A stretch of 64,000 nucleotides of DNA, taken from Octopus vulgaris. Its lineage: Eukaryota. The translations under genes and the position numbers were made by a program. Shown here piece by piece: positions 8,749 to 64,000 of the stretch (the first letter of the stretch is position 1; each line of letters begins with the position of its first letter). The DNA lies in NCBI GenBank assembly GCA_951406725.2, contig OX597820.1:33666001-33730000 (forward strand), written 5' to 3'. The notes beneath the pieces were generated by a model, which saw nothing but the letters and a program-made list of their open reading frames with translations, was not told where the DNA came from and made no database searches.

Positions 8749-9495
8749 GGCAGGAACGATTCAACCTGATACCGGTGGAGCTGCGCAAGGTAACTCTTTC
8801 AAAGAAGATGATGTTAAAACTTAGGTAAATAAGTGATAAGACATAACAAGTCTGGGAACCTTTTGATTCAACCTCCTATATGCATTGTATATATATATAT
8901 ATATATATTTATAATAAGATTAGCTCGTATACGAGTGGGTATATATTTGTAAAAAATGAAGTTCGAAAATGCTGCTATATTAGACAAATTTTTAATTTTT
9001 ATATATACATTATTTATTTAACATGTTTCGGTTCTTGAAATGATGAACCTTATGAAAAAAAATTATATATAAAAAAAGATAGTTCATGCTATCAAATATA
9101 AAAAATTCATATATAATATACAATAGAGTCAGACATCAAAAGTTCATATATAGTGAAGTGAGTTCATGCTATATGTTTAAAGAGTATGATGTAGTAGTTC
9201 ATAGTGGTGATATGCATTCAATATAAAAAATAGTTCATAGTGGTGATATGCATTCAATATAAAAATTGATGTTCTTGAAAAAGCGAGGAATTCATTTTAG
9301 ATTTTACCTTGAGCAACTGTGATGACTTTTGGTCGGTGTCGCTAAGGACCTTTTGCGATTCGCCCTGCGGCGACTTTTGAGCTGCATTTTTATATTGAGT
9401 AAGAGATGGAAGTCTACTGGTGCTAAATCTGGTGAATAGAGCGAGTGTGGAAGCGATATCATCTTGTTTTTGGCTAATAAAGAAGTCATGTGATC

Positions 9496-9542
<47 letters not shown>

Positions 9543-9545
<3 letters not shown>

Positions 9546-9697
9546 GATCACATGACTTCTTTATTAGCCAAAAACAAGATGATATCGCTTCCACACTCGC
9601 TCTATTCACCAGATTTAGCACCAGTAGACTTCCATCTCTTACTCAATATAAAAATGCAGCTCAAAAGTCGCCGCAGGGCGAATCGCAAAAGGTCCTT
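9543..9697 (+). pseudogene. Mariner transposase fragment (mirrored at about 9345-9498 on the minus strand)
   Basis: LPHSLYSPDLAPVDFHLLLNIKMQLKSRR, matching the mariner HPPYSPDLAP motif. Confidence 0.85.
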
Positions 9698-9975
9698 AGC
9701 GACACCGACCAAAAGTCATCACAGTTGCTCAAGGTAAAATCTAAAATGAATTCCTCGCTTTTTCAAGAACATCAATTTTTATATTGAATGCATATCACCA
9801 CTATGAACTATTTTTTATATTGAATGCATATCACCACTATGAACTACTACATCATACTCTTTAAACATATAGCATGAACTCACTTCACTATATATGAACT
9901 TTTGATGTCTGACTCTATTGTATATTATATATGAATTTTTTATATTTGATAGCATGAACTATCTTTTTTATATAT

Positions 9976-10027
9976 AATTTTTTTTCATAAGGTTCATCAT
10001 TTCAAGAACCGAAACATGTTAAATAAA
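9976..10027 (+). ncRNA. Inactivated hammerhead-like motif (mirrored at about 9013-9065)
   Basis: TTCATAA-GGTTC-loop-GAACC-GAAAC-AT-GTT. The homologue at 35874-35920 has TTGATAA. Confidence 0.55.
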
Positions 10028-10123
10028 TAATGTATATATAAAAATTAAAAATTTGTCTAATATAGCAGCATTTTCGAACTTCATTTTTTACAAATATATA
10101 CCCACTCGTATACGAGCTAATCT

Positions 10124-10198
<75 letters not shown>

Positions 10199-10199
10199 A

Positions 10200-10355
10200 T
10201 ATAGGAGGTTGAATCAAAAGGTTCCCAGACTTGTTATGTCTTATCACTTATTTACCTAAGTTTTAACATCATCTTCTTTGAAAGAGTTACCTTGCGCAGC
10301 ACTACACCGGTATCAGCGTTCCTGCCACTTTTGGAATACGGCCTGGAAATTATTA
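10200..10355 (-). mobile_element. Mariner 3' end and TIR (mirrored at 8744-8880)
   Basis: FQAVFQKWQER*YRCSAAQGNSFKED matches a mariner C-terminus. It is followed by a TIR-like GGGAACCTTTTGATTCAACCTCCTA. Confidence 0.75.
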
Positions 10356-13372: not shown

Positions 13373-16300
13373 CCTCCATTTCCACCCCACTTTCCACTCT
13401 GCTACACCACTCCTACCCATACTCCGTACTACATCCTACCGCCTTATGCGTGCCACCATTCACTCCAATCTCTCCAAAATATACACCATCGACCGTCTTC
13501 TCCCTCTTGCTTTTTCCATCTTCTCCTCTCAGTCGCCCTCCCATGCCAACACCACGTTACGTTACATAATTTATTTAAATCATCTCTTTTATCAATTTCT
13601 CGCTAACACCAAACAACGTAAGCTCCACTCACTCCTCCATTCCATCACACCCGATGTCACTACCCCAACTCCCCCACTACCCCAGTTCCTCCCTGATACG
13701 CTCCCCCACCTTCACCCAAACCCCACGTCCCTCTAAATCCCCACACACATACCCCATCGCCTCCTTCCCAGCCTTCCACCAGTCCCACCACCCCTCCTAC
13801 TTCTACTCTATCCACCGCTCCTACATCTATCCCATCCACCCCTTCTCCACTTCAGTCTGTTGCTACCATTCCTCCAGATCTTCCCCTCTCTGAGGCGGAG
13901 AACTCCCTCCTTAGTAGGGGGTCTCTGCTTCATCCCCCTCACTCCATCCAGCAACGAATTTCGGACTCGTGCTGATATCCACAGCTTTGTGCGCCGTGTT
14001 AGGTTGTGTGCGCTTTCCCGCGGCACTCCACCTGCATCTAATGAGGAGGACTGCTTCACCGACCTGGGCCGCCGACCATCCCTGTGGACGCTAGCTCCTG
14101 GCCAGTTCCAAGCAGTTGATCTTTTTTCGGGCGCCTGCCAGCTCTCTGTGGACCGGTTTAACTTTTCCAGGTGGCCCCGTCATCTAAACATCTCCCCAGC
14201 CGAACTCTCGGCTCTTCCATGTCTCCGACGCCGCACTGACATCATCATAAAATCGGCCGACAAGAGTGGAGCCGTGGTGGTGTGGTGCGCAGACCTCTAC
14301 AAGGCTGAAGCTCTCCGCCAACTTCAAGACACTTCCTTCTACTGCCTTCTGCCCTCTGACTCCACGCCCAGCTACCAACAGACTGTGTCCTCCACTATCC
14401 ATGACCTCATCTCCTCCTCCCGTCTCCCCCACCACCGCCTCCAACCTCATTGTCCGCACCCGTCGCACCCCCACCATTTACTTCCTCCCCAAAATCCACA
14501 AACCTAACAACCCTAGCCGCCCCATCGTCTCCGCCTGCAACTGCCCCACTGAACTCATCTCCCGATATCTTGACCGTGTCCTTGCCCCCCTAGTGGCTTC
14601 CCTCCCGTCTCACATCCATGACACTAACCACGCGTTTCGTTTGTTCACCTCTTTCTCCTTCCCTCCTAGCCCCTCTAAATTCCTCTTCACTCTCGACATC
14701 CAGAGCCTTTACACGGCGATCCCTCACCACGTGGGGCTGCGTGCACTCCAACATTTCCTTGACCTTCGACCTAACCCCCAGTCCGACACATCCACACTCG
14801 TTCGTCTGGCTGAACGTGTCCTCTCACTCAACTGCTTCTTGTTCGCGGGTGATTTCTACCAGCAAATCTCGGGAGTGGCCATAGGAACGAGAATGGGCCC
14901 CCAACTATGCAAACCTGTTCGTTGGCTACGTTGCGGCTCAAATATTCTCAAGTTTCACTGGTCCTACTCCCGAACTATATGGCCATTATATTGACGACTG
15001 TATCAGTGCGACTTCACTCTCCTGCGAACATCTAGACTCCTTCTTCTCTTTTGTCAAATCTTTCTATCCTGCCCTCCACTTCTCCTGCACTATCTCTGAC
15101 ATCTCTGTCTCCTTTCTTGACATTTCGGTCAGCATTCATCACTCCACTCTCACCACCTCCATCCACTAGAAACACACAGACTCACACTCATACCTCAACT
15201 TCTCCTCCTCCCACCCCAAACACATCAAGCTTTCCATCCCCTACTCCCAATTCCTCCGTCTACGCAGGCTCTGTAGTGACGACCATAACTTTAAGACTCA
15301 GTCTCAACTCATGGATCGCAACTTCATCCTACGTGGATATCTCCTCACCACTATCCACACCGCCCTTGCCAGAGCACGTTCCGTGGACCGTGCATCTGCT
15401 CTCTCCCCCCGAACCCACCCCGCCATCTCTCGCCTCTCAATTTCCCCTTCACCTACCACCCCACCACCCTACCTCTCCAACATCGTACATCTTCCCTAAC
15501 CTACCCCTTCCTCCTTCAAATGAGCCCTCAACCTACGAGACCTCTTGGTCCACAGCTTCTTCCCTAACCCAACTTCTCAACCCGGTTCGTTCCTCTACTC
15601 CCGCCCACACTGCCACACTTGCCCTTACCTCTCCAACAACACCTTCCTCACCGGCACCCATCATCGACCCTATCACATCACCGAATATCATCTACTGAAT
15701 CTCCTGCTCTCTCTGCCCTTCTCTATACATCGGGCAAAAGGGACGCCACTTAGCTGACCGGTTTGCGGAACACCTCCGAGACATCCGACTCGGCAATGAC
15801 ACCCCGGTCTCGCGCCATTTCTGCTCTACCGATCACTCTTTGCAACACCTGTCCGTGTTCGGATTGTCCTTGCACAGGGCCATCCGGACTCCCGTTTGCG
15901 TCGTGAACAGGGATTAATCTTCTCTCTTCGCTCCTTTGCGTCACATGGGCTCGTCTCTCCTCTCCTCTTCATCTAACCTACTCTCCTCGCCTCTCTCCCC
16001 CTCACACCTACTTCCTCCCACCTCTCCTCTCCTCTCTTGCTCCGACTCCTACTTCTTCTCTTCACTCCTACTCTCTTTCTCTCTTCTCTTCACTCCTACC
16101 CATCTTCTCCTTCCCCTTCATTGTCACCCCTCCCTCGTAAGCCCACCCCACCCCTACAATTCCAACCCCACCTTCCCTATTCTTCCCCAATCCCTTACAC
16201 CCACTCCCACATACCTCTACCTCCAACCTCTGCCTACCCACATACCCCACCCTCAGCGTAGCCCAAGCCCCACCCTTGCTTTCCCCACTCTCGCCTACCC

Positions 16301-19059: not shown

Positions 19060-21165
19060 ACTAATAGCAATATGACCGATGAACAAAAGGCAATTTACGA
19101 CAGAATAAAGGTAAGACTACAGGAGAACGATAGAGACATTATTTACAACCTTAAAAAGGTTGATCGATGGAAATTGAACCAAGAAACGTAAAATGTCAAG
19201 GAAATTCTGAAATACATCAGAACAAACAACACCACAGAAACAAATAATTTTATCAAGGTAGCAAGTATTGTTGTAGCAGAAAACGTGGATGTTGAAACAT
19301 AATGGGAGTGACAAAAGAAAAGATCCATGGTGGAAAAGAAGAATTCAGGCAGTGTTAGACATGCTCTCAAAGGAAATCTCTGTGTTAGACCAAAAAGAGA
19401 AAGGGGAGCTTAAAAGCGAACAAAAATACAGTGCTTGAAAAGGAAGTATAATATTGAAAGAAAGGGCCTGAAAGTAGTAGTGGGGGAATTGAAACAGCGC
19501 CTCGTTGCAAAGAAAGCAAAGATGGTAAGATACGACCAAAGAATGAAGGATTACCACTAGAATAGGTTATTCAGAGTAGGTCGGAAGAGATTCTATAAAG
19601 AAACAAATGGAGAGTGTACAGATGAAAAGTTGATACCAGATAACATTGAAAGTCAAAGGTTTTGGAGTGACATCTGGAGCAAAGACAAGGAGCACAAGAA
19701 GGATGCTGAATGGTTGCAAGAACTGAAACAAATAGTAGTCTGTCCAAAACAGGCAGAACTAGTCATTTCGGTTAGGGAAGTGAAGGAAATCTTCAAAAAA
19801 ATTAGCAACTGGAAGTCCCCGGGACCAGATGGAGTTCAAGGCTACTGAATCAAAAGATTTGGTGAATGTCATGCATGAATAGCTGCGCAACTCAACACCT
19901 TGTTAAATTCTGACCAAGTAACACCAGAGTGGTTGACATTGGGTAGGACAGTGCTGTGTAGAAATTAGGAGGGGCATCTTCCAGGGGGACTGCCTGTCCC
20001 CACTGATCTTTGTACCGTGCTTAATACCACTAACACTGATTCTGAGGAAAGCAAAAGCTGGGTATGTATTCAAAATCCACCAACAAAAAGTGAACCATTT
20101 GTTATTCATGGATGACCTCAAACTTTATGGTAAAGATGAATCCCAAGTCAGTTCCCTCGTTGATGCGGTGTATACTTTCAGTGCTTATATCAGAATAGAG
20201 TTCGGACTGAGAAAGTGTGGTGTGTTAGTCTTGAAGAGAGGCAAAATCAAATGTATAGACGGGCTAACGATACCGTCGGTGGAAGTTATGAAGCAGATAG
20301 AAGAGACGGGCTATAAGTACTTGGGGATTTTGGAAATGGATAAATTGATGGAGAAAGAAATGACAGAAAAATTTAAGGTGGAGTAGTTGCGCAGACTGAG
20401 ACTGATCCTTAAGTCGAAATTAAACGGACGGAATAAGATTGAAGTTATCAACAGCTGGGAAGTTTCACTCCTTAGATATGGAGCAGGGGTAATTGCATGG
20501 ACAGTAGACGAACTAAACAGCTTAGACAAAAAGATAAGGAAGTTGCTAACTAGATATGGGTCACTCCACCCAAAAAGTGACACAGACAGACTGTACGCAC
20601 CAAGAAAACGGGGGGGGGGAAGAGGACTTATTGGATGTGAACATAGCATTAGAGCAGAGGAAAACAACATAGCATGGTATGTAAAAAATGTCACAAAACC
20701 GCTGTTATTAGAAGTAAGAAGGCCAGATTTGTGTAGGATGAAAGATTGCAAAGATAAAGCACTATACAAGAAATTGAAAGCGAATGAAACTGAAAATAGG
20801 TGGGTAAAGAAAAGAATGGATGGTCAATTTCATAGAGATGTTGAAGATAAGACAGACAGAGAAAAAAGATGGCTGTGGATGACTAAATGTGATATAAAAC
20901 TGGAGACGGAGGCTCTAATCTATGCTACTCAAGAGCAAGCACTAAGAACATACTACATAAAACACAGAATAGACAACACAGCAGAAAGTGATAAGTGCAG
21001 AATCTGTGGACAAAATGGTGAAACCGTATGACATATTACCAGCCAATGTACGCCACTAGCCCAGAAGGAATAAGAGACACCACGACAATATAGCCGGGCT
21101 TGTCCATTGGACACTTTGCAAAAAGTATGGACTTGACAGAGCAAAACATTGGTACGACCACAAAC
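19060..21165 (+). mobile_element. R4/Dong-like non-LTR retrotransposon (RT + CCHC), decayed with an internal RT deletion
   Basis: NWKSPGPDGVQGY, GIFQGDCLSPL, NHLLFMDDLKLY, YKYLGI, GGRGL, QEQALRT, CRICGQNGETV*HITSQC, RHDN. Confidence 0.9.
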
Positions 21166-33900: not shown

Positions 33901-33943
<43 letters not shown>

Positions 33944-34165
33944 ATATGTTTTTATATGTCTATATGGTTTTATTTAATATACATATAATCATATACTTCT
34001 CATTTATTTAGTTTTTCTTCCCTTTATCCTTCCTCTTTCTATAGGCTACCTCTGACTTTATATCCTATAACGTTGTTTTGAAACAAGGTTAATAGCGTTC
34101 AGTTAATCACTATACATATCTATCATTTTCTGTTAAAATGTCTTATTGAAGAGTTTCATTTCTTC

Positions 34166-34251
34166 ATTTCCCTGAAGAGATTACATTGTTTTACACCATT
34201 TTATTCCTTTGGAATAATACCAGTGATTTCTTCGAAACATGTGTCGGAAGT
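34166..34251 (+). ncRNA. Type-I hammerhead ribozyme motif
   Basis: ATTTCC-CTGAAGA-GA...TC-GAAAC-ATGT-GTC-GGAAGT. 6-bp stem I, GUC site, about 35 nt upstream of (TA)n. Confidence 0.8.
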
Positions 34252-34284
34252 AAAAAAATTTGAATAACACCTGCATTTAACTCC

Positions 34285-34358
<74 letters not shown>

Positions 34359-34443
34359 AAGGGTGGAAAGGAACACACGAGTTGATGTATATGAAAAAAC
34401 AAGTCAAAAATAGAAAATGCTAAGATAATTTTATAGTGAATCT

Positions 34444-34486
34444 TTCAGTACCGGTTTCGGTCATTTTGAGACCTTTTCAACTGTAA
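34444..34486 (-). ncRNA. Hammerhead motif with U3:A8 core
   Basis: TTACAG-TTGAAAA-GGTC-loop-GACC-GAAAC-CG-GTA-CTGAA. Confidence 0.7.
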
Positions 34487-35125
34487 CGATTAAATAATTA
34501 AATTTAGAAAAATTAGAAGAAAAGTTTTTTTAAATGAATATTTCTGTAGTAGTGTTCAGATATAAGTAGCATTCTGCCTTTCTCTGACTCCCTTGTTTGC
34601 ACTTGTGTGTTCGAGGTCGTTTTGAGTTCTTGGTAGGATAGGTGAAGAATAAGGAGGCTGATGTGGAGAGAGGGTGGGGAAATCTGGGAATGCCTTAATG
34701 GTCGTATTTTGAATGGTCAGTGGCTGACAGTAGTCGCAGTTCAATTCAGGAATTGTTTATGGAATTTGCGTAGGCGTTATACTGAAAGACATTAGTGACA
34801 AGGTTAAGGGGTGGAAGGTGGAGAAGTAGAAGAAGAAGAAGATGACGATGTTGATGATGATGATGAAGAAGAAGAAGAAGAAGAAGAAGAAGAAGAAGAA
34901 GAAGAAGAAGAAGATGGTGGTGATGATGGTGGTGATGATGATGACGACGATGATGATGATAATGATGATGATGAAGAAGAAGAGGAAGAAGAAGAAGAAA
35001 AAAACAGCGAAGGGAGAATATGAATGGGTGAAAGTATAGCTGTGATGGGGCTGATTAGTAATGGATTCTATGGAGTGTAATATTTGTGTGTGTATATATT
35101 TCTTTTATTCTAAAGTTGAGGTATA

Positions 35126-35500
35126 TTAATTGTTTGTCGTAGACCCGTTAAGAAGTGGCTTGTATTTTGTAATAAAGAGATTTTCTTTACTTATTCGTTG
35201 TCTCGAGGTTGTATCGTCCCTAAATTGGTAGAGGGGGAAAATCCTGAAGTTTGGTGTTTTTTTGTTGGCGCAAGTATCTATGTGTTGGCTAAAAGCTATT
35301 TTTCTGTTTTGGAGAATTTTTATCTGGGATCTGTGCAGGGCCATTCGTTTACGCAAACCATTTTTTGTTTGGCCTATGTACTGCTCTTGACACCCGGAGC
35401 AGGTTAGTGAGTATATTAGGTTCTCCGAAGCACATGTGAAGTTGCTTTTCACTGTAAACCGTTGTGCCTGTTTGAAGGAGAACTCTGATCCCTCAATTAG
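35126..35500 (-). pseudogene. PLE GIY-YIG endonuclease domain (open frame, 5' truncated)
   Basis: FTCASENLIYSLTCSGCQEQYIGQTKNGLRKRMALHRSQI...RISKENLFITKYKPLLN. Confidence 0.9.
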
Positions 35501-35617
35501 ATATCTAATTGAGGGATCAGAGAAAGGCAGAATGCTACTTATATCTGAACACTACTACAGAAATATTCATTTAAAAAAACTTTTCTTCTAATTTTTCTAA
35601 ATTTAATTATTTAATCG

Positions 35618-35660
35618 TTACAGTTGAAAAGGTCTCAAAATGACCGAAACCGGTACTGAA
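35618..35660 (+). ncRNA. Hammerhead motif with U3:A8 core (inverted pLTR copy)
   Basis: Same sequence as 34444-34486 on the opposite strand. Confidence 0.7.
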
Positions 35661-35707
35661 AGATTCACTATAAAATTATCTTAGCATTTTCTATTTTTGA
35701 CTTGTTT

Positions 35708-35773
<66 letters not shown>

Positions 35774-35776
<3 letters not shown>

Positions 35777-36616
35777 ATTAGCTCGTATACGAGTGGGTAT
35801 ATATTTGTAAAAAATGAAGTTTGAAAATGCTGCTATATTAGACAAACTTTAATTTTTATATATACATTATTTATTTAACATGTTTCGGTTCTTGAAATGA
35901 CGAACCTTATCAAAAGAAAATTATATATAAAAAAGATAGTTCATGCTATCAAATATAAAAAAATTCATATATAATATTCAATAGAATCAGACATAAAAAA
36001 ATCATATATAGTAAAGCGAGTCCATGCTATATGTTTAAAGAGTATGATGTAGTAGTTCATAGTGGTGATATGCATTCAATATAAAAAATTCATGTTCTTG
36101 AAAAAGCGAGGAAATAATTTTAGATTTTACCTTGTGTTCCAATGGGAGCAACTGTAATGACTTTTGGTTGGCGCCTGTTCGTATAGTTTTGGTGAATCTT
36201 GTGAATTGTTTGGGTTTTATATCAGTTCAGCTTAGCTGTCTCACTTGCATTTTTCACTGACGTCATATAGTTCCCAACCAATCAAAACTCAGTCTCAACG
36301 AATATATCTTGTTAGGAAACCAACCAAGCAGAACGACAGTTTGGCCACGGGAGAAATATGTCATCCTTGTTTTTGACGGATTGGAATTTGATCTGATCCA
36401 TGACTGTAGCCTGTTAGGTGGCTAGTCAAGCGGAACGAGACGTCATCAATGTTTTGACTGATCATCTCGTTAGGTGGCTAGTCCAGCAGAACGGGACGTC
36501 ATCAATGTTTTGACCAGTCATCCCGTTTGGTGGCTAGTCTAGCAGAACGAGACGTCATCAATGTTTTGACCAATCAGAATCGGGTCTGACCTATAGCTGT
36601 ATTAGATCTGACCCAT

Positions 36617-36620
<4 letters not shown>
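35774..36620 (-). mobile_element. Non-coding HHR-bearing element between two (TA)n tracts (pLTR-like)
   Basis: HHR TTGATAA-GGTTC..GAACC-GAAAC-AT-GTT at 35874-35920. 35774-36175 is homologous to 8913-9340. About 55-bp tandem repeats at 36410-36580. Confidence 0.65.
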
Positions 36621-36683
<63 letters not shown>

Positions 36684-46693: not shown

Positions 46694-47873
46694 CGAGGGG
46701 TGTCTGAAAAGTCTTGAGCCTCAAAAAAACAAAACATAGTACAAGACTTCTGATGACTGAACACTAAGAAACTTCCTACAGTGTCTATGACGTCATTGTC
46801 AGTGGCAAAATGGCAACCAGCCAGGCCTTTTTTCAATTTGGGGAATAGATGAAAGTCAGAGGGGACTAAGTCTGGCGAATAAGGGAGATGGGGAACAAGT
46901 TCGTCTCCACAATCACGAATTATTGAGGTGTGGGCTGGAGCATTGTCGTGATGAAAAAGGACTCCTCTGGTGAGCATTCCTGGCCTTTTTTCTTTGATTG
47001 CTTCCTGGAGGCATTACAGTACCTGAGAATAATACAGCCCTGTCACAGTGTGACCCTTTCCAAGGTAATCGATCAGCAAGACACCTTCAGAATCCAAAAA
47101 AAACTGACGCCATGACCTTGCCAGCTGAAGGAATGACCTGGCCTTCAGGAGAAGATGATGTGCTTCCATTGCTTTGATTGTTCTTTGGTTTCAGGCTGGT
47201 AGTGATGAACCCAACTTTCGTCCATAGTAATAAAACGAACAAGAAAATTCTCTTCATCGGCTTCAAACAGTTCCAGATTGCTCGTGGACAAAGTGCACCT
47301 AGTGCGTTTCTGTTCAGGAGTCAAAACCCGAGGAACCCACCTTGCAGAAACCTTTGAGAACCCATGTTCTTTTGTCCCAATGTTGTCTGCTCTTTCATTT
47401 GAGATGCCCAGTCTCTCAGCTATCTGGCGACATGATATTCGACGATCTTGCGTTATCATACCAAGAGCAAGGTCAATGTTGTCCTCGGTGGTTGCAGTTG
47501 GAGGCCTCCCTGGTCTGGGATCATCTTCCACACTCTTCCTGCCACGCTGGAATTCATTTACCCAGCGTTTGAATGTTGCATATGAAGGAGCATTTTCTGT
47601 TAAGGTTCTCACCATATCTTCATGGATTTCTGAAGGAGTCATGCCTTTCAAATGAAGGTACTTCATTACAACACGATACTCAGTTTTCCCCATTTTCCTT
47701 GTAACCTCGACACTTGTTTATTCAAAAATCTGTAACAAAAAAAAATTAAAATATCAGAATCATAAAAATGAGCAAGAATACTCCGATAAGACTGTACTTA
47801 CCAGAAAACATTGTTTCAGCTACCTAGCAGCCCCGTTTCTATGTTAGGCTCAAAACTTTTCATACACCCCTCG
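46694..47873 (-). mobile_element. Mariner transposon with both TIRs
   Basis: TA|CGAGGGGTGTCTGAAAAGTCTTGAGCCT...AGGCTCAAAACTTTTCATACACCCCTCG|TA. Confidence 0.95.
46760..47693 (-). pseudogene. Mariner DD34D transposase, frameshifted with the C-terminus deleted
   Basis: SARWVPRVLT, ITMDESWVHHY, FHHDNAPAH, PHLPYSPDLVPSDFHLFPKLK. Confidence 0.93.
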
Positions 47874-51114: not shown

Positions 51115-51185
<71 letters not shown>

Positions 51186-51244
51186 AAGAAGAAGAAGAAG
51201 AAGAAGAAGAAGAAGAAGAAGAAGAAGAAGAAGAAGAAGAAGAA

Positions 51245-52195
51245 ACAACAAAAGCTATAAAACAAATGAAATCCAAACTAAAACTAGAACAGCAACAAAC
51301 TATGATAAAACGATGGCAAGAAAAGCCCCTTCATGGCAAATACTGGACTAAGCTAAATGCAAAAGAAATAGACAAAGAAAAATCCCAGCAATGGTTGATA
51401 AGCTCAGGACTCAAAGCAGAGACAAAGGGATTTTTAATTGCAGCACAAGACCAAAGCCTCCCCACCAGAAATTACCAAAAACATGTAATGAAAAGAAATA
51501 TTACAAGTAACTGCAGAATATGTGGAGATGGACAAGAAACAATAAATCATATTATCTCTAGCTGCCCAGTCCTGGCTAAGAAGGAAGATATTCACAGACA
51601 CGACAGAGTTGGGACCTACATACACTGGAAGCTATGCCAACATTATGGAATAACAACAGAAAAAAGATGGTATAGGCACACACCAGAAAAGGTCACAGAA
51701 AACGAGGAAGCAACCATACTCTGGGATATGCCAATACACACAGATAGAGAAATTAAGGCCAACAGACCAGATATAGTTGTCAGAGATCATAAAGAAAAAA
51801 ATGCTTTCTAATTTATGTATCAATACCAGCAGATGACAACGTGTCTCTAAAAGAAATGGAGAAACGTTCAAAATACAAAGACCTGGAAATAGAGGTAACT
51901 AGAATGTGGAATCTGAAAACAGAAACAATTCCTATCATAGTAGGTGCATTAGGCACGATAAAAAAATATTCAGACAAATACATAGCAAAAACACCATGAC
52001 TTACAAACACATATAACATACAGAAAATTGCACTACTAGGCACTGCACACATCCTACGCAGAACACTTTCAATACAGTAACCATCAGAGCATCACAACAA
52101 ATCACAGCACATACCCAAGGCACACAGAGCTGCGCTCGGTAGTGAAGTGAAAGCACGTTATAAAAAAAATACTGAATGATGATAATAATAATAAC
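51245..52195 (+). mobile_element. R4/Dong-like LINE 3' fragment (CCHC + RLE + 3' UTR + TAA tail), relatively young
   Basis: EKPLHGKY, GLKAETKGFLIAAQDQSLPTRNY, CRICGDGQETINHIISSC, RHD, ANRPDIVV, KYKDLEIE, IPIIVGALG. Confidence 0.93.
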
Positions 52196-63013: not shown

Positions 63014-64000
63014 TTATTGCAAAGCTTCATGATAAACAACATTTTTGGTCTTCCCATTCGGGGTCAGTACAAACAGCTTATTTCCATTTCTAACCCTTGA
63101 ACAACCAGCATAGAGCTGGCCGTGAGAAAAGCAGAGTTCTATCAGATGAAGCCCTGTTACTGTTAATGATTGTCCTTGGGACTTATTGACTGACATTGCA
63201 TAGCCCACTCTCACTGGAAACTGAAGTCTTTTGAGCTCAAAACGAAGATCTGGAGAAATTAAGGGGATTCTTGGAATTAAATCTCTTTCCTCTTTTCTTA
63301 GACCAGTAAGGATCTCTACTTCCAAGAGATGACGAAGCATCTTCTTGACAATTAACCTTGTTCTGTTACAAAACTTTGGAGAATCCAGATTTCTTAATGA
63401 CATAACTGGTACATTTTCTTTTAGTTCCAGGTTGTGTGATGGCATTCCAGTAGGATTCAATGAGTTCAGGAACTCTGTTGATAATTCACTGCGTGCTCTT
63501 GTTCAGCCACAGTGTCAATGAAAATGTACTTCATGCTTTCTTTTGGAATTTCTTGGAGAGGTTTCCAGTTGATGCTATCCACAGTTTTATTCTTCATAGC
63601 TAATATGGCCGAATCCAAAAAATGATGTTTAATGTTTGGATAAACATGGTTAATCAAGTCTTGTCTACTTGAGATTGAAACTTGAGATTTGGGAGTGAAA
63701 TATCTCCATTTTGGTCCATCTTGATGGTTCCATTGCCAAGTTGCAACAACAAAGCAGCAAATCTTCATGTTTCAAGGTTACCCGTGATTCTAGCTTTCAT
63801 GTTTGTTTTCAGGCTGAGTGTTTGAACATTCTCCAGATGTAAGAATTATTCAGGCAAGCATTGGTTTCATCAACTGGAGTTCCTCTTGCAAAGACTTGTA
63901 ATGTTTGTCTAAGATCACCAGAGAATAGCATAGTGATACCTCCCATGATTTGTGAATTTTGTCTAATATCTTGGAGTATTTTGTCCAGAGTCTCAAATGC
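63014..64000 (-). pseudogene. Helitron RepHel PIF1-type helicase C-terminal part, decayed; runs off the window edge
   Basis: GGITMLFSGDLRQTL, SAILAMKNKTVDSIN, GMPSHNLELKENVPVMSLRNL, RLQFPVRVGYAMSVNKSQGQSL, FSHGQLYAGCSRV, TKNVVYHEAL. Confidence 0.93.

What the first reader, a model, noticed from the sequence alone, without database searches (positions are those of the whole stretch)
34444..35920. Two unrelated families share a compensatory U3:A8 hammerhead core
Seen: cores TTGAAAA (34444-34486, 35618-35660) and TTGATAA (35874-35920) replace CTGANGA, with different stem II sequences. Established: C3 and G8 form a Watson-Crick pair in the active hammerhead, and U3:A8 is a tolerated covariation. 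Inference: the double change in two families reflects selection for cleavage rather than decay, and standard CUGANGA searches would miss these motifs. The copy at 9984 (TTCATAA, G5>C) is a natural dead control.
Basis: partly seen in the sequence, partly recalled or inferred. Interest (0 to 1): 0.72.

Follow-up and report, generated by a model that had tools for sequence, protein, structure and literature searches.

The report
Variant hammerheads of sister Penelope retroelements
These are self-cutting-RNA (hammerhead) motifs with an already described U3:A8 core, carried by two related jumping-gene families, and rare genomic copies fused to U6 RNA exactly at the predicted cut show that this core likely does cut in living cells.

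Summary
The motifs are real: minimal type I hammerheads in the pseudo-LTRs of two Neptune-like Penelope elements. U3:A8 is fixed (family A: 1,747 of 1,907 copies match the full motif, 1 has C3:G8; family B: 25 of 31 sampled). The families are not unrelated: their RT-endonucleases are 64-68% identical and neighbouring families also carry U3:A8, so the pair is most likely inherited once. Natural U3:A8 cores, also in Penelope elements, are published (2011, 2014). Multi-copy U3:G8 and C3:A8 families exist too, so the pair is not strictly required for spreading. G5C is one insertion event.

The functional inference is supported by other evidence. 17 family-A insertions begin exactly at the predicted cut. 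Both U6-family-A fusions found within positions -22..+8, one U6 fusion of sister family B', and one retrozyme cleavage product join at that nucleotide. This points to in vivo cleavage and ligation. I found no paper on it in two searches; the scan noted the same U6 fusions in another genome (e1-8159350). Most copies were made from uncut RNA. Family B itself and bench cleavage are untested.

The parts
34351..35503 (-). Family A Neptune-like PLE, 5'-truncated main copy: GIY-YIG C-terminus (35129-35503), 3' UTR/pLTR, hammerhead, tail; (TA)n to its left
   Evidence: tblastn 95% to the intact ORF2 of L035; blastn to the full element in L031
34449..34480 (-). Family A minimal type I hammerhead: U3-U4-G5-A6-A7-A8-A9 core (34474-34480), stem II GGUC/GACC, palindrome ACCGGU, GUA triplet; predicted cut between 34449 and 34448
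   Evidence: junction data
35512..35719 (+). Inverted 5'-truncated arm of the same family A insertion, ending in (TA)n
   Evidence: 203-nt 100% inverted repeat 34385-34587/35517-35719
35624..35655 (+). Second copy of the family A hammerhead (same event); predicted cut after 35655
35788..36624 (-). Family B Neptune-like PLE, 5'-truncated 3' end (UTR repeats, pLTR, tail) inserted at (TA)n
   Evidence: blastn 91% to full-length L069
35877..35913 (-). Family B minimal type I hammerhead: UUGAUAA core (35907-35913), stem II GGUUC/GAACC, palindrome ACAUGU, GUU triplet, weak A-U stem I
8888..10152 (.). Palindromic family B insertion (two head-to-head arms, centre 9520)
   Evidence: inverted repeats I1 and I6
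9984..10020 (+). Family B hammerhead with G5C, right arm; predicted inactive
9020..9056 (-). Family B hammerhead with G5C, left arm of the same event
34172..34243 (+). Neighbouring third repeat end (33943-34299) with a C3:G8 hammerhead-like motif, expanded loop 2 and G17; probably degenerate
   Evidence: (L177)

Best explanation
The motifs are minimal type I hammerheads in the terminal repeats of two related Neptune-like Penelope retrotransposons, whose U3:A8 core was likely inherited from a common ancestor and likely self-cleaves a fraction of transcripts in vivo. Shown: U3:A8 is fixed in both families; the motif lies in sense orientation behind the RT-GIY-YIG ORF and, in the upstream repeat, 123 nt before the ORF1 ATG; some insertions begin exactly at the predicted cut and are fused there to U6 or to another ribozyme's cut end. 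Predicted: stem III cannot form in a monomer, so two motifs pair through the 6-nt palindrome, perhaps helped by the element's protein. Inferred: cleavage leaves a 5'-OH that a host RtcB-type ligase occasionally joins to 2',3'-cyclic-phosphate RNAs before reverse transcription. Cleavage is partial, and most insertions are copied from uncut RNA. The likely job is trimming the 5' end of the two-ORF transcript out of read-through or tandem RNA.
For: Fixation: 1,747 exact 41-nt motifs of 1,907 anchors, 1 C3:G8 copy, 19 G5 changes; all 30 family-A loci TTGAAAA; family B 25 of 31 motifs. Identity: RVT_1 (E 3e-8) and C-terminal GIY-YIG (E 1.5e-4, just under the curated cut-off) in L035; full-length units of about 4.4 kb with direct repeats in L031 and L069. 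Relatedness: A-B 64-68% aa, 70% nt over 2.2 kb, shared T-TTT-TTA overlap into the -1 frame; A, B, B', H and E all U3:A8. Fold: family A stem II P about 0.96, stem I P 0.79, monomer stem III P 0; the homodimer MFE pairs the palindromes. Cleavage record: 25 hits at the cut give 17 true 5' junctions; the control at -12 gives 0 of 6; -39..-35 gives 4 of 7 over five positions. U6 (RF00026) joins at position 0 in 2 of 2 family-A fusions within -22..+8 and in the single event found for B'. A U3:A8 retrozyme motif ending at its own GUC is joined to position 0 in L261. U6 ends in a 2',3'-cyclic phosphate and RtcB joins it to 5'-OH RNA (PMC6789731, abstract and opening text).
Against: No cleavage assay and no raw RNA reads. 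By total count the cut site is not the only peak: position +5 has 18 junction rows as well, explained here by (TA)n microhomology and fold-back, and +3..+8 is generally high. None of 21 ORF1-bearing family-A copies begins at the cut; 13 run through the motif, which does not support 5'-end trimming as the main route. Family B itself gave one junction, at -1/0, and no U6 fusion; it has GUU and an unstable stem I, and 13 of 175 copies have G5 changes. Multi-copy U3:G8 and C3:A8 families exist. In one type III mutational scan only the C:G to G:C swap rescued activity (PMC9901934, passages). For the anole element, HHR mutants did not affect insertion in vitro and no reads ended at the cut (PMC11167929, passages). 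The root of the ORF2 tree is weak (bootstrap 65) and family F rests on one partial locus.
Confidence: 0.8

Rival explanations
1. The ribozyme cuts, but the fusions arise when the reverse transcriptase runs off the cut 5' end and jumps to the 3' end of another RNA; no RNA ligation is involved.
For: Many position-0 junctions go to inverted self sequence, target repeats or two tRNA-like SINE pieces rather than to known cyclic-phosphate RNAs. Internal deletions also end at the cut. Template jumping by R2-type RTs is recalled, not checked here.
Against: The identified small-RNA partners end exactly where a cyclic phosphate is expected (U6 U5 tail; retrozyme C17), and both arms of L370/L371 carry near full-length U6.
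Confidence: 0.3
2. U3:A8 is a weakened or nearly neutral state fixed by hitch-hiking in an AT-rich lineage. The motif is kept as a protein-binding or folding signal, and the junctions reflect RT stalling or a host nuclease.
For: U3:G8 families reach C3:G8-like copy numbers (615 against 613). Most templates were uncut. G5-defective copies recur in family B. PLE minimal HHRs cleave poorly in vitro (PMC4209133).
Against: Single-nucleotide coincidence of three U6 fusions and one retrozyme fusion with the hammerhead scissile bond in two families whose downstream sequences differ. Core and palindrome are conserved while stems vary across families.
Confidence: 0.12
3. One reading: U3:A8 arose independently in two unrelated families by convergent compensatory change.
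For: Stem II, loop 2 and the palindrome differ, and the pLTRs do not align by blastn. C3:G8/U3:A8 switching does occur between 90%-identical retrozyme monomers, so the pair can change repeatedly.
Against: ORF2 64-68% identical; all of A, B, B', H, E and a subfamily of C carry U3:A8.
Confidence: 0.07

Closest known systems
Minimal type I hammerheads of metazoan Penelope-like elements, including the U3-A8 variant in Schistosoma Cercyon PLEs (Cervera and de la Pena 2014, PMC4209133; parts 1-2 of 4 read, supplements not seen)
   Same: pLTR location, palindromic helix III, G10.1-C11.1, predicted dimer, inverted pairs 100-700 bp apart, and the U3-A8 covariation (about 1,300 hits there with its own descriptor)
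   Different: Different host. Here U3:A8 is the majority state. No extra base between positions 9 and 10.1. A genomic record of cleavage is found here; that paper states that in vivo evidence was absent.
Natural U3:A8 hammerheads (Perreault et al. 2011, PMC3088659; passages read)
   Same: C3-G8 covaries to U3-A8 in several natural ribozymes; activity in vitro is cited there to Przybilski and Hammann 2007 (not held, not read)
   Different: Not tied to PLE family phylogeny. U3:G8 and C3:A8 families are not described in the passages seen.
Neptune-clade EN+ PLEs (Craig et al. 2021, PMC8557442; passages read)
   Same: RT, CX2-5CxxC linker, C-terminal GIY-YIG, pLTRs, inverted 5'-truncated arm, optional tail, (TA)n target
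   Different: Clade placement was not tested against reference sequences. These families have a separate ORF1 overlapping ORF2 at a conserved slippery heptamer.
U6/LINE-1 chimeras formed by RtcB ligation (Moldovan et al. 2019, PMC6789731; abstract and opening text read)
   Same: Complete U6 3' end with U5 tail fused to a 5'-truncated retroelement
   Different: There the L1 partner is variably truncated; here the join is fixed at the element's own ribozyme cut.
Anole Poseidon element PAc (PMC11167929; passages read)
   Same: PLE hammerhead upstream of the tail; uncut RNA is the main template
   Different: PAc has C3:G8 and needs its protein to cleave in vitro; no RNA-seq ends at the cut were detected there.

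Membership tests
Minimal type I hammerhead (PLE type) | Core N3-U4-G5-A6-N7-N8-A9 ... G12-A13-A14-A15.1, U16.1-H17 | tested here: met
   H17 = A (family A), U (family B)
Minimal type I hammerhead (PLE type) | Watson-Crick 3:8 pair | tested here: met
   U3:A8 fixed; not the canonical C3:G8
Minimal type I hammerhead (PLE type) | Stem II with G10.1-C11.1 | tested here: met
   4 and 5 bp; P 0.96 and 0.55
Minimal type I hammerhead (PLE type) | Stem I closing the motif | tested here: inconclusive
   Family A 3 bp at P 0.79; window family-B copy in-register P 0.02
Minimal type I hammerhead (PLE type) | Palindromic stem III allowing a dimer | tested here: met
   ACCGGU and ACAUGU; homodimer MFE
Minimal type I hammerhead (PLE type) | Site-specific self-cleavage | not testable with these tools
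   Indirect genomic support for families A and B' only
Rfam hammerhead models | Covariance-model match | tested here: inconclusive
   No hammerhead family among the 150 listed of 205 window hits at E up to 1; 55 weaker hits not shown
Neptune-like EN+ PLE | RT followed by C-terminal GIY-YIG | tested here: met
   (GIY-YIG 22.4 bits against cut-off 22.6)
Neptune-like EN+ PLE | CX2-5CxxC linker and two cysteines inside GIY-YIG | tested here: met
   CGRPNCGIC and IYSLTCSGCQEQYIG in L035; equivalent motifs in L069; definition
Neptune-like EN+ PLE | pLTRs, inverted truncated arm, tail, (TA)n target | tested here: met
Neptune-like EN+ PLE | RT phylogeny with reference Neptune against Nematis | not tested
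   No reference PLE proteins were fetched
Naiad PLE | N-terminal endonuclease | tested here: not met
   The endonuclease is C-terminal
Non-LTR retrozyme | Non-coding tandem repeat of about 300 bp | tested here: not met
   Families A and B are coding 4.4-kb elements; separate 359-bp retrozymes exist

The most novel reading that the evidence does not exclude
Penelope insertions keep a genomic record of their ribozyme's activity: U3:A8 minimal hammerheads cut in the germ line, and the 5'-OH product is ligated by a host ligase to U6 or to other ribozymes' cut ends before retrotransposition. Junction mapping then becomes an in vivo assay for each core variant, including multi-copy U3:G8 and C3:A8 families that look like the intermediates of a compensatory switch.
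Probability: 0.55. Interest if true: 0.65.

Novelty: new member of a known kind. Interest (0 to 1): 0.45.

Why it matters
The U3:A8 core itself is known. What is open is whether the weak, dimer-dependent hammerheads of animal Penelope elements cut in cells: the two papers read here report low activity in vitro and no in vivo ends. Fusions of U6 and of a retrozyme end to the exact scissile position give DNA-level support, for a non-canonical core. The genome also holds all four 3:8 combinations in closely related repeats, a ready panel for testing how a tertiary base pair switches. In practice, CUGANGA-only screens miss most hammerheads of this shape in this genome.

Tried and rejected
Rfam scan of the window listed no hammerhead among the 150 rows shown. 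Run search: no RNA holder listed, contigs only, so no transcript ends could be seen; this is no evidence either way. Laying four contig sets from four coded organisms showed the family-A repeat in all four. In the 40 rows shown (26 not shown), the only common change inside the motif was at the C11.1 CpG. Naiad identity was rejected. The test whether full-length family-A copies start at the cut was negative: 0 of 21. A survey of the first 30 of 166 U6 3'-end loci found no PLE tail; most are SINE fusions or U6 genes. The U6 pattern for B/B' found nothing because the one B' chimera has a variant U6 end. Family C (U3:G8): 2 of 6 hits are junctions at position 0, without a control, so no conclusion. 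G5-defective family-B copies do not form one clear clade. ARAGORN found no tRNA in five junction loci. L240, first classed as foreign, is family-A ORF1 sequence. L249 was dropped as ambiguous. Lunse 2017, Przybilski 2007 and Martick 2006 are not held and were not read; Lunse 2017 may already report assays of U3:A8 PLE dimers.

Full report
Observation. A descriptor scan of both strands found five hammerhead-like motifs with stem I pairing: family A at 34449-34480 (-) and 35624-35655 (+), family B at 35877-35913 (-), and G5C versions of B at 9020-9056 (-) and 9984-10020 (+). The A pair are arms of one 203-nt inverted repeat and the G5C pair are arms of one palindrome, so these are three insertions. 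The window lies in a 2.8-Gb, microsatellite-rich animal genome; earlier scan notes call it a cephalopod, which I did not test.

Is U3:A8 fixed? The family-A stem II/III anchor has 1,907 exact copies (control 0). 1,747 match the whole 41-nt motif, 1 has C3:G8 and 19 have a G5 change. All 30 loci read have TTGAAAA. The family-B anchor has 175 copies; 25 of 31 motifs read have TTGATAA and 13 of 175 have a G5 change, 4 of them G5C. The closest relatives of the window's G5C copy have G5, so it is a private change.

What carries them. Pairs of motifs 4.4 kb apart enclose ORF1 and an RT-GIY-YIG ORF2 (L031, L069; intact 784-aa ORF2 frame in L035), with a CX4CxxC linker, inverted truncated arms, a tail and (TA)n targets. 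These are Neptune-type features as defined in Craig et al. 2021 (passages); clade placement was not tested with references. The motif is in sense orientation about 55 nt before the 3' end and, in the upstream repeat, 123 nt before the ORF1 ATG.

Relatedness. ORF2 of A and B is 64-68% identical, and the DNA 70% over 2.2 kb. In a tree of 16 full or partial ORF2 sequences, A, B, B', H and E carry U3:A8 (one B element, L069, has C3:A8), C carries U3:G8 and F carries C3:G8. E is sister to C+F (bootstrap 90); the root is weak (65) and F rests on one partial locus. A subfamily of C also has U3:A8. One inherited U3:A8 state is the simplest reading, so the 'two unrelated families' argument fails.

Does the pair covary anywhere? 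One generic pattern gave (control in brackets) C3:G8 613 (104), U3:A8 with N7 not A 2,195 (55), C3:A8 194 (58) and U3:G8 615 (85); only the first 100 rows of each were listed. In 359-bp retrozyme-like repeats, C3:G8 and U3:A8 monomers are 90% identical over 361 nt, a C3:A8 group is 94% identical to C3:G8, and U3:A8 and U3:G8 versions are 92% identical over 200 nt (46 motifs). The Watson-Crick pair dominates but is not required for spread.

Fold. Family A folds with stems I and II. Stem III cannot form in a monomer, and the homodimer minimum-energy fold pairs the ACCGGU palindromes. The window's B copy has a poorly registered A-U stem I and a GUU triplet.

Evidence for cleavage. If the RNA is cut, some cDNAs should end at the cut. 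None of 21 ORF1-bearing family-A copies does; 13 run through the motif. For short copies I used patterns forcing mismatches just upstream of a chosen position. At the cut, 25 hits gave 24 unique rows: 6 indel-type, 1 ambiguous and 17 true junctions. At -12, 0 of 6 were true; at -39..-35, 4 of 7. For -11..-1 and +3..+8 I classified 88 and 57 unique rows from 206 hits; hits that looked like indels in the listing were not fetched, and +1 and +2 were not covered. True junction rows numbered 0-7 per position, except 18 at +5, where (TA)n microhomology and fold-backs dominate. The filters differ slightly between sets, so counts are rough. By number alone the cut is one of two peaks.

By kind the cut site stands out. 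Six of its junctions are foreign sequence: two U6 3' ends with the full T5 tail (RF00026), two tRNA-like SINE pieces (by eye), one short unknown piece, and L261. In L261 the other arm is a U3:A8 retrozyme motif, slightly degenerate, ending at its own GUC and joined to position 0. Elsewhere 8 rows over 22 positions were classed foreign, at least two of them self sequence by eye. A direct search for U6 joined anywhere from -22 to +8 returned 2 hits, both at 0 (about 1 in 1,000 if joins were uniform). The same junction test in sister family B' returned one event: near full-length U6 in both arms, joined exactly at that family's cut. Family B itself gave one uninformative junction.

Mechanism. U6 ends in a 2',3'-cyclic phosphate and RtcB joins it to 5'-OH RNA (Moldovan 2019, abstract and opening text). 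A hammerhead leaves a 5'-OH on its 3' product and a cyclic phosphate on its 5' product (established knowledge). Ligation before reverse transcription explains the partners seen; template jumping from the cut end is the main rival. Both need an RNA end at the scissile bond. Cleavage must be partial, as most copies span the motif. This fits the anole element, where uncut RNA is the template and cleavage needs the protein (passages). One mutational scan found no rescue by U:A in a type III ribozyme (passages), so tolerance depends on context.

Comparison with print. Natural U3:A8 cores: Perreault 2011 (passages). U3-A8 in PLE minimal hammerheads, about 1,300 hits: Cervera and de la Pena 2014 (parts 1-2 of 4). 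Retrozymes: Cervera 2020 (passages) and a 2026 preprint (part 1 of 5). Two full-text searches for U6 or ligation chimeras at PLE ribozyme sites listed no such paper; the library is incomplete, Lunse 2017 was not available and no supplements were read. The scan had noted U6 fusions at Penelope cuts in another genome (e1-8159350), which I saw after finding mine. The idea of testing junctions at the cut came from note e1-8662772.

Verdict. Real motifs, known variant, wrong premise of independence, and a plausible function now supported by genomic junctions for families A and B'. New member of a known kind; interest 0.45.

Noticed in passing
window 33943-34299 (+), motif 34172-34243: A third repeat end next to element A, with a C3:G8 core, an expanded loop 2 and G17; related to L177. 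Three ribozyme-bearing repeat ends sit side by side in (TA)n tracts.
   Followed up: partly
L031, L035, L069, L169, L174 (ORF1/ORF2 overlap): A conserved T-TTT-TTA heptamer at the ORF1 end leads into ORF2 in the -1 frame in families A, B, B' and C; likely a programmed frameshift.
   Followed up: partly
L169, L186, L158 (family C); L154-L168 (retrozyme-like): Two multi-copy families with a U3:G8 wobble core; family C includes full-length elements and has only a 2-bp stem II.
   Followed up: partly
L146, L147; G000:C4:80857199-80857948: A retrozyme subfamily with a C3:A8 mismatch core in tandem 360-bp copies, 94% identical to a C3:G8 family.
   Followed up: partly
L212, L215, L221, L224, L230, L237, L247/L248, L243: Recurrent internal deletions of family A that end at the predicted cut; the 12-nt one removes GAAA, lies between near-repeats and occurs in about 10 of 56 hits.
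   Followed up: partly
L338-L367: Most dispersed U6 copies in this genome are fused to SINE sequence; L345-L351 is a tandem U6 gene cluster.
   Followed up: no
L210:1440-1503: Both arms of an inverted family-A insertion start at the cut and share a short foreign hairpin-like spacer of unknown origin.
   Followed up: no
window 13911-15791 (+): A decayed, more distant PLE (about 30% aa identity to family A) with no hammerhead found by the descriptor.
   Followed up: no
window 8775-8913 / 10167-10340: The family B palindrome is flanked by a 139-nt inverted duplication of neighbouring sequence, and has a (TA)n tract at its centre (9520).
   Followed up: no
window 47145-47717 (-), 63014-63502 (-), 20387-21031 (+), 51158-51811 (+): Fragments that look like a mariner transposase, a Helitron helicase and LINE reverse transcriptases (by eye from the ORF list).
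   Followed up: no
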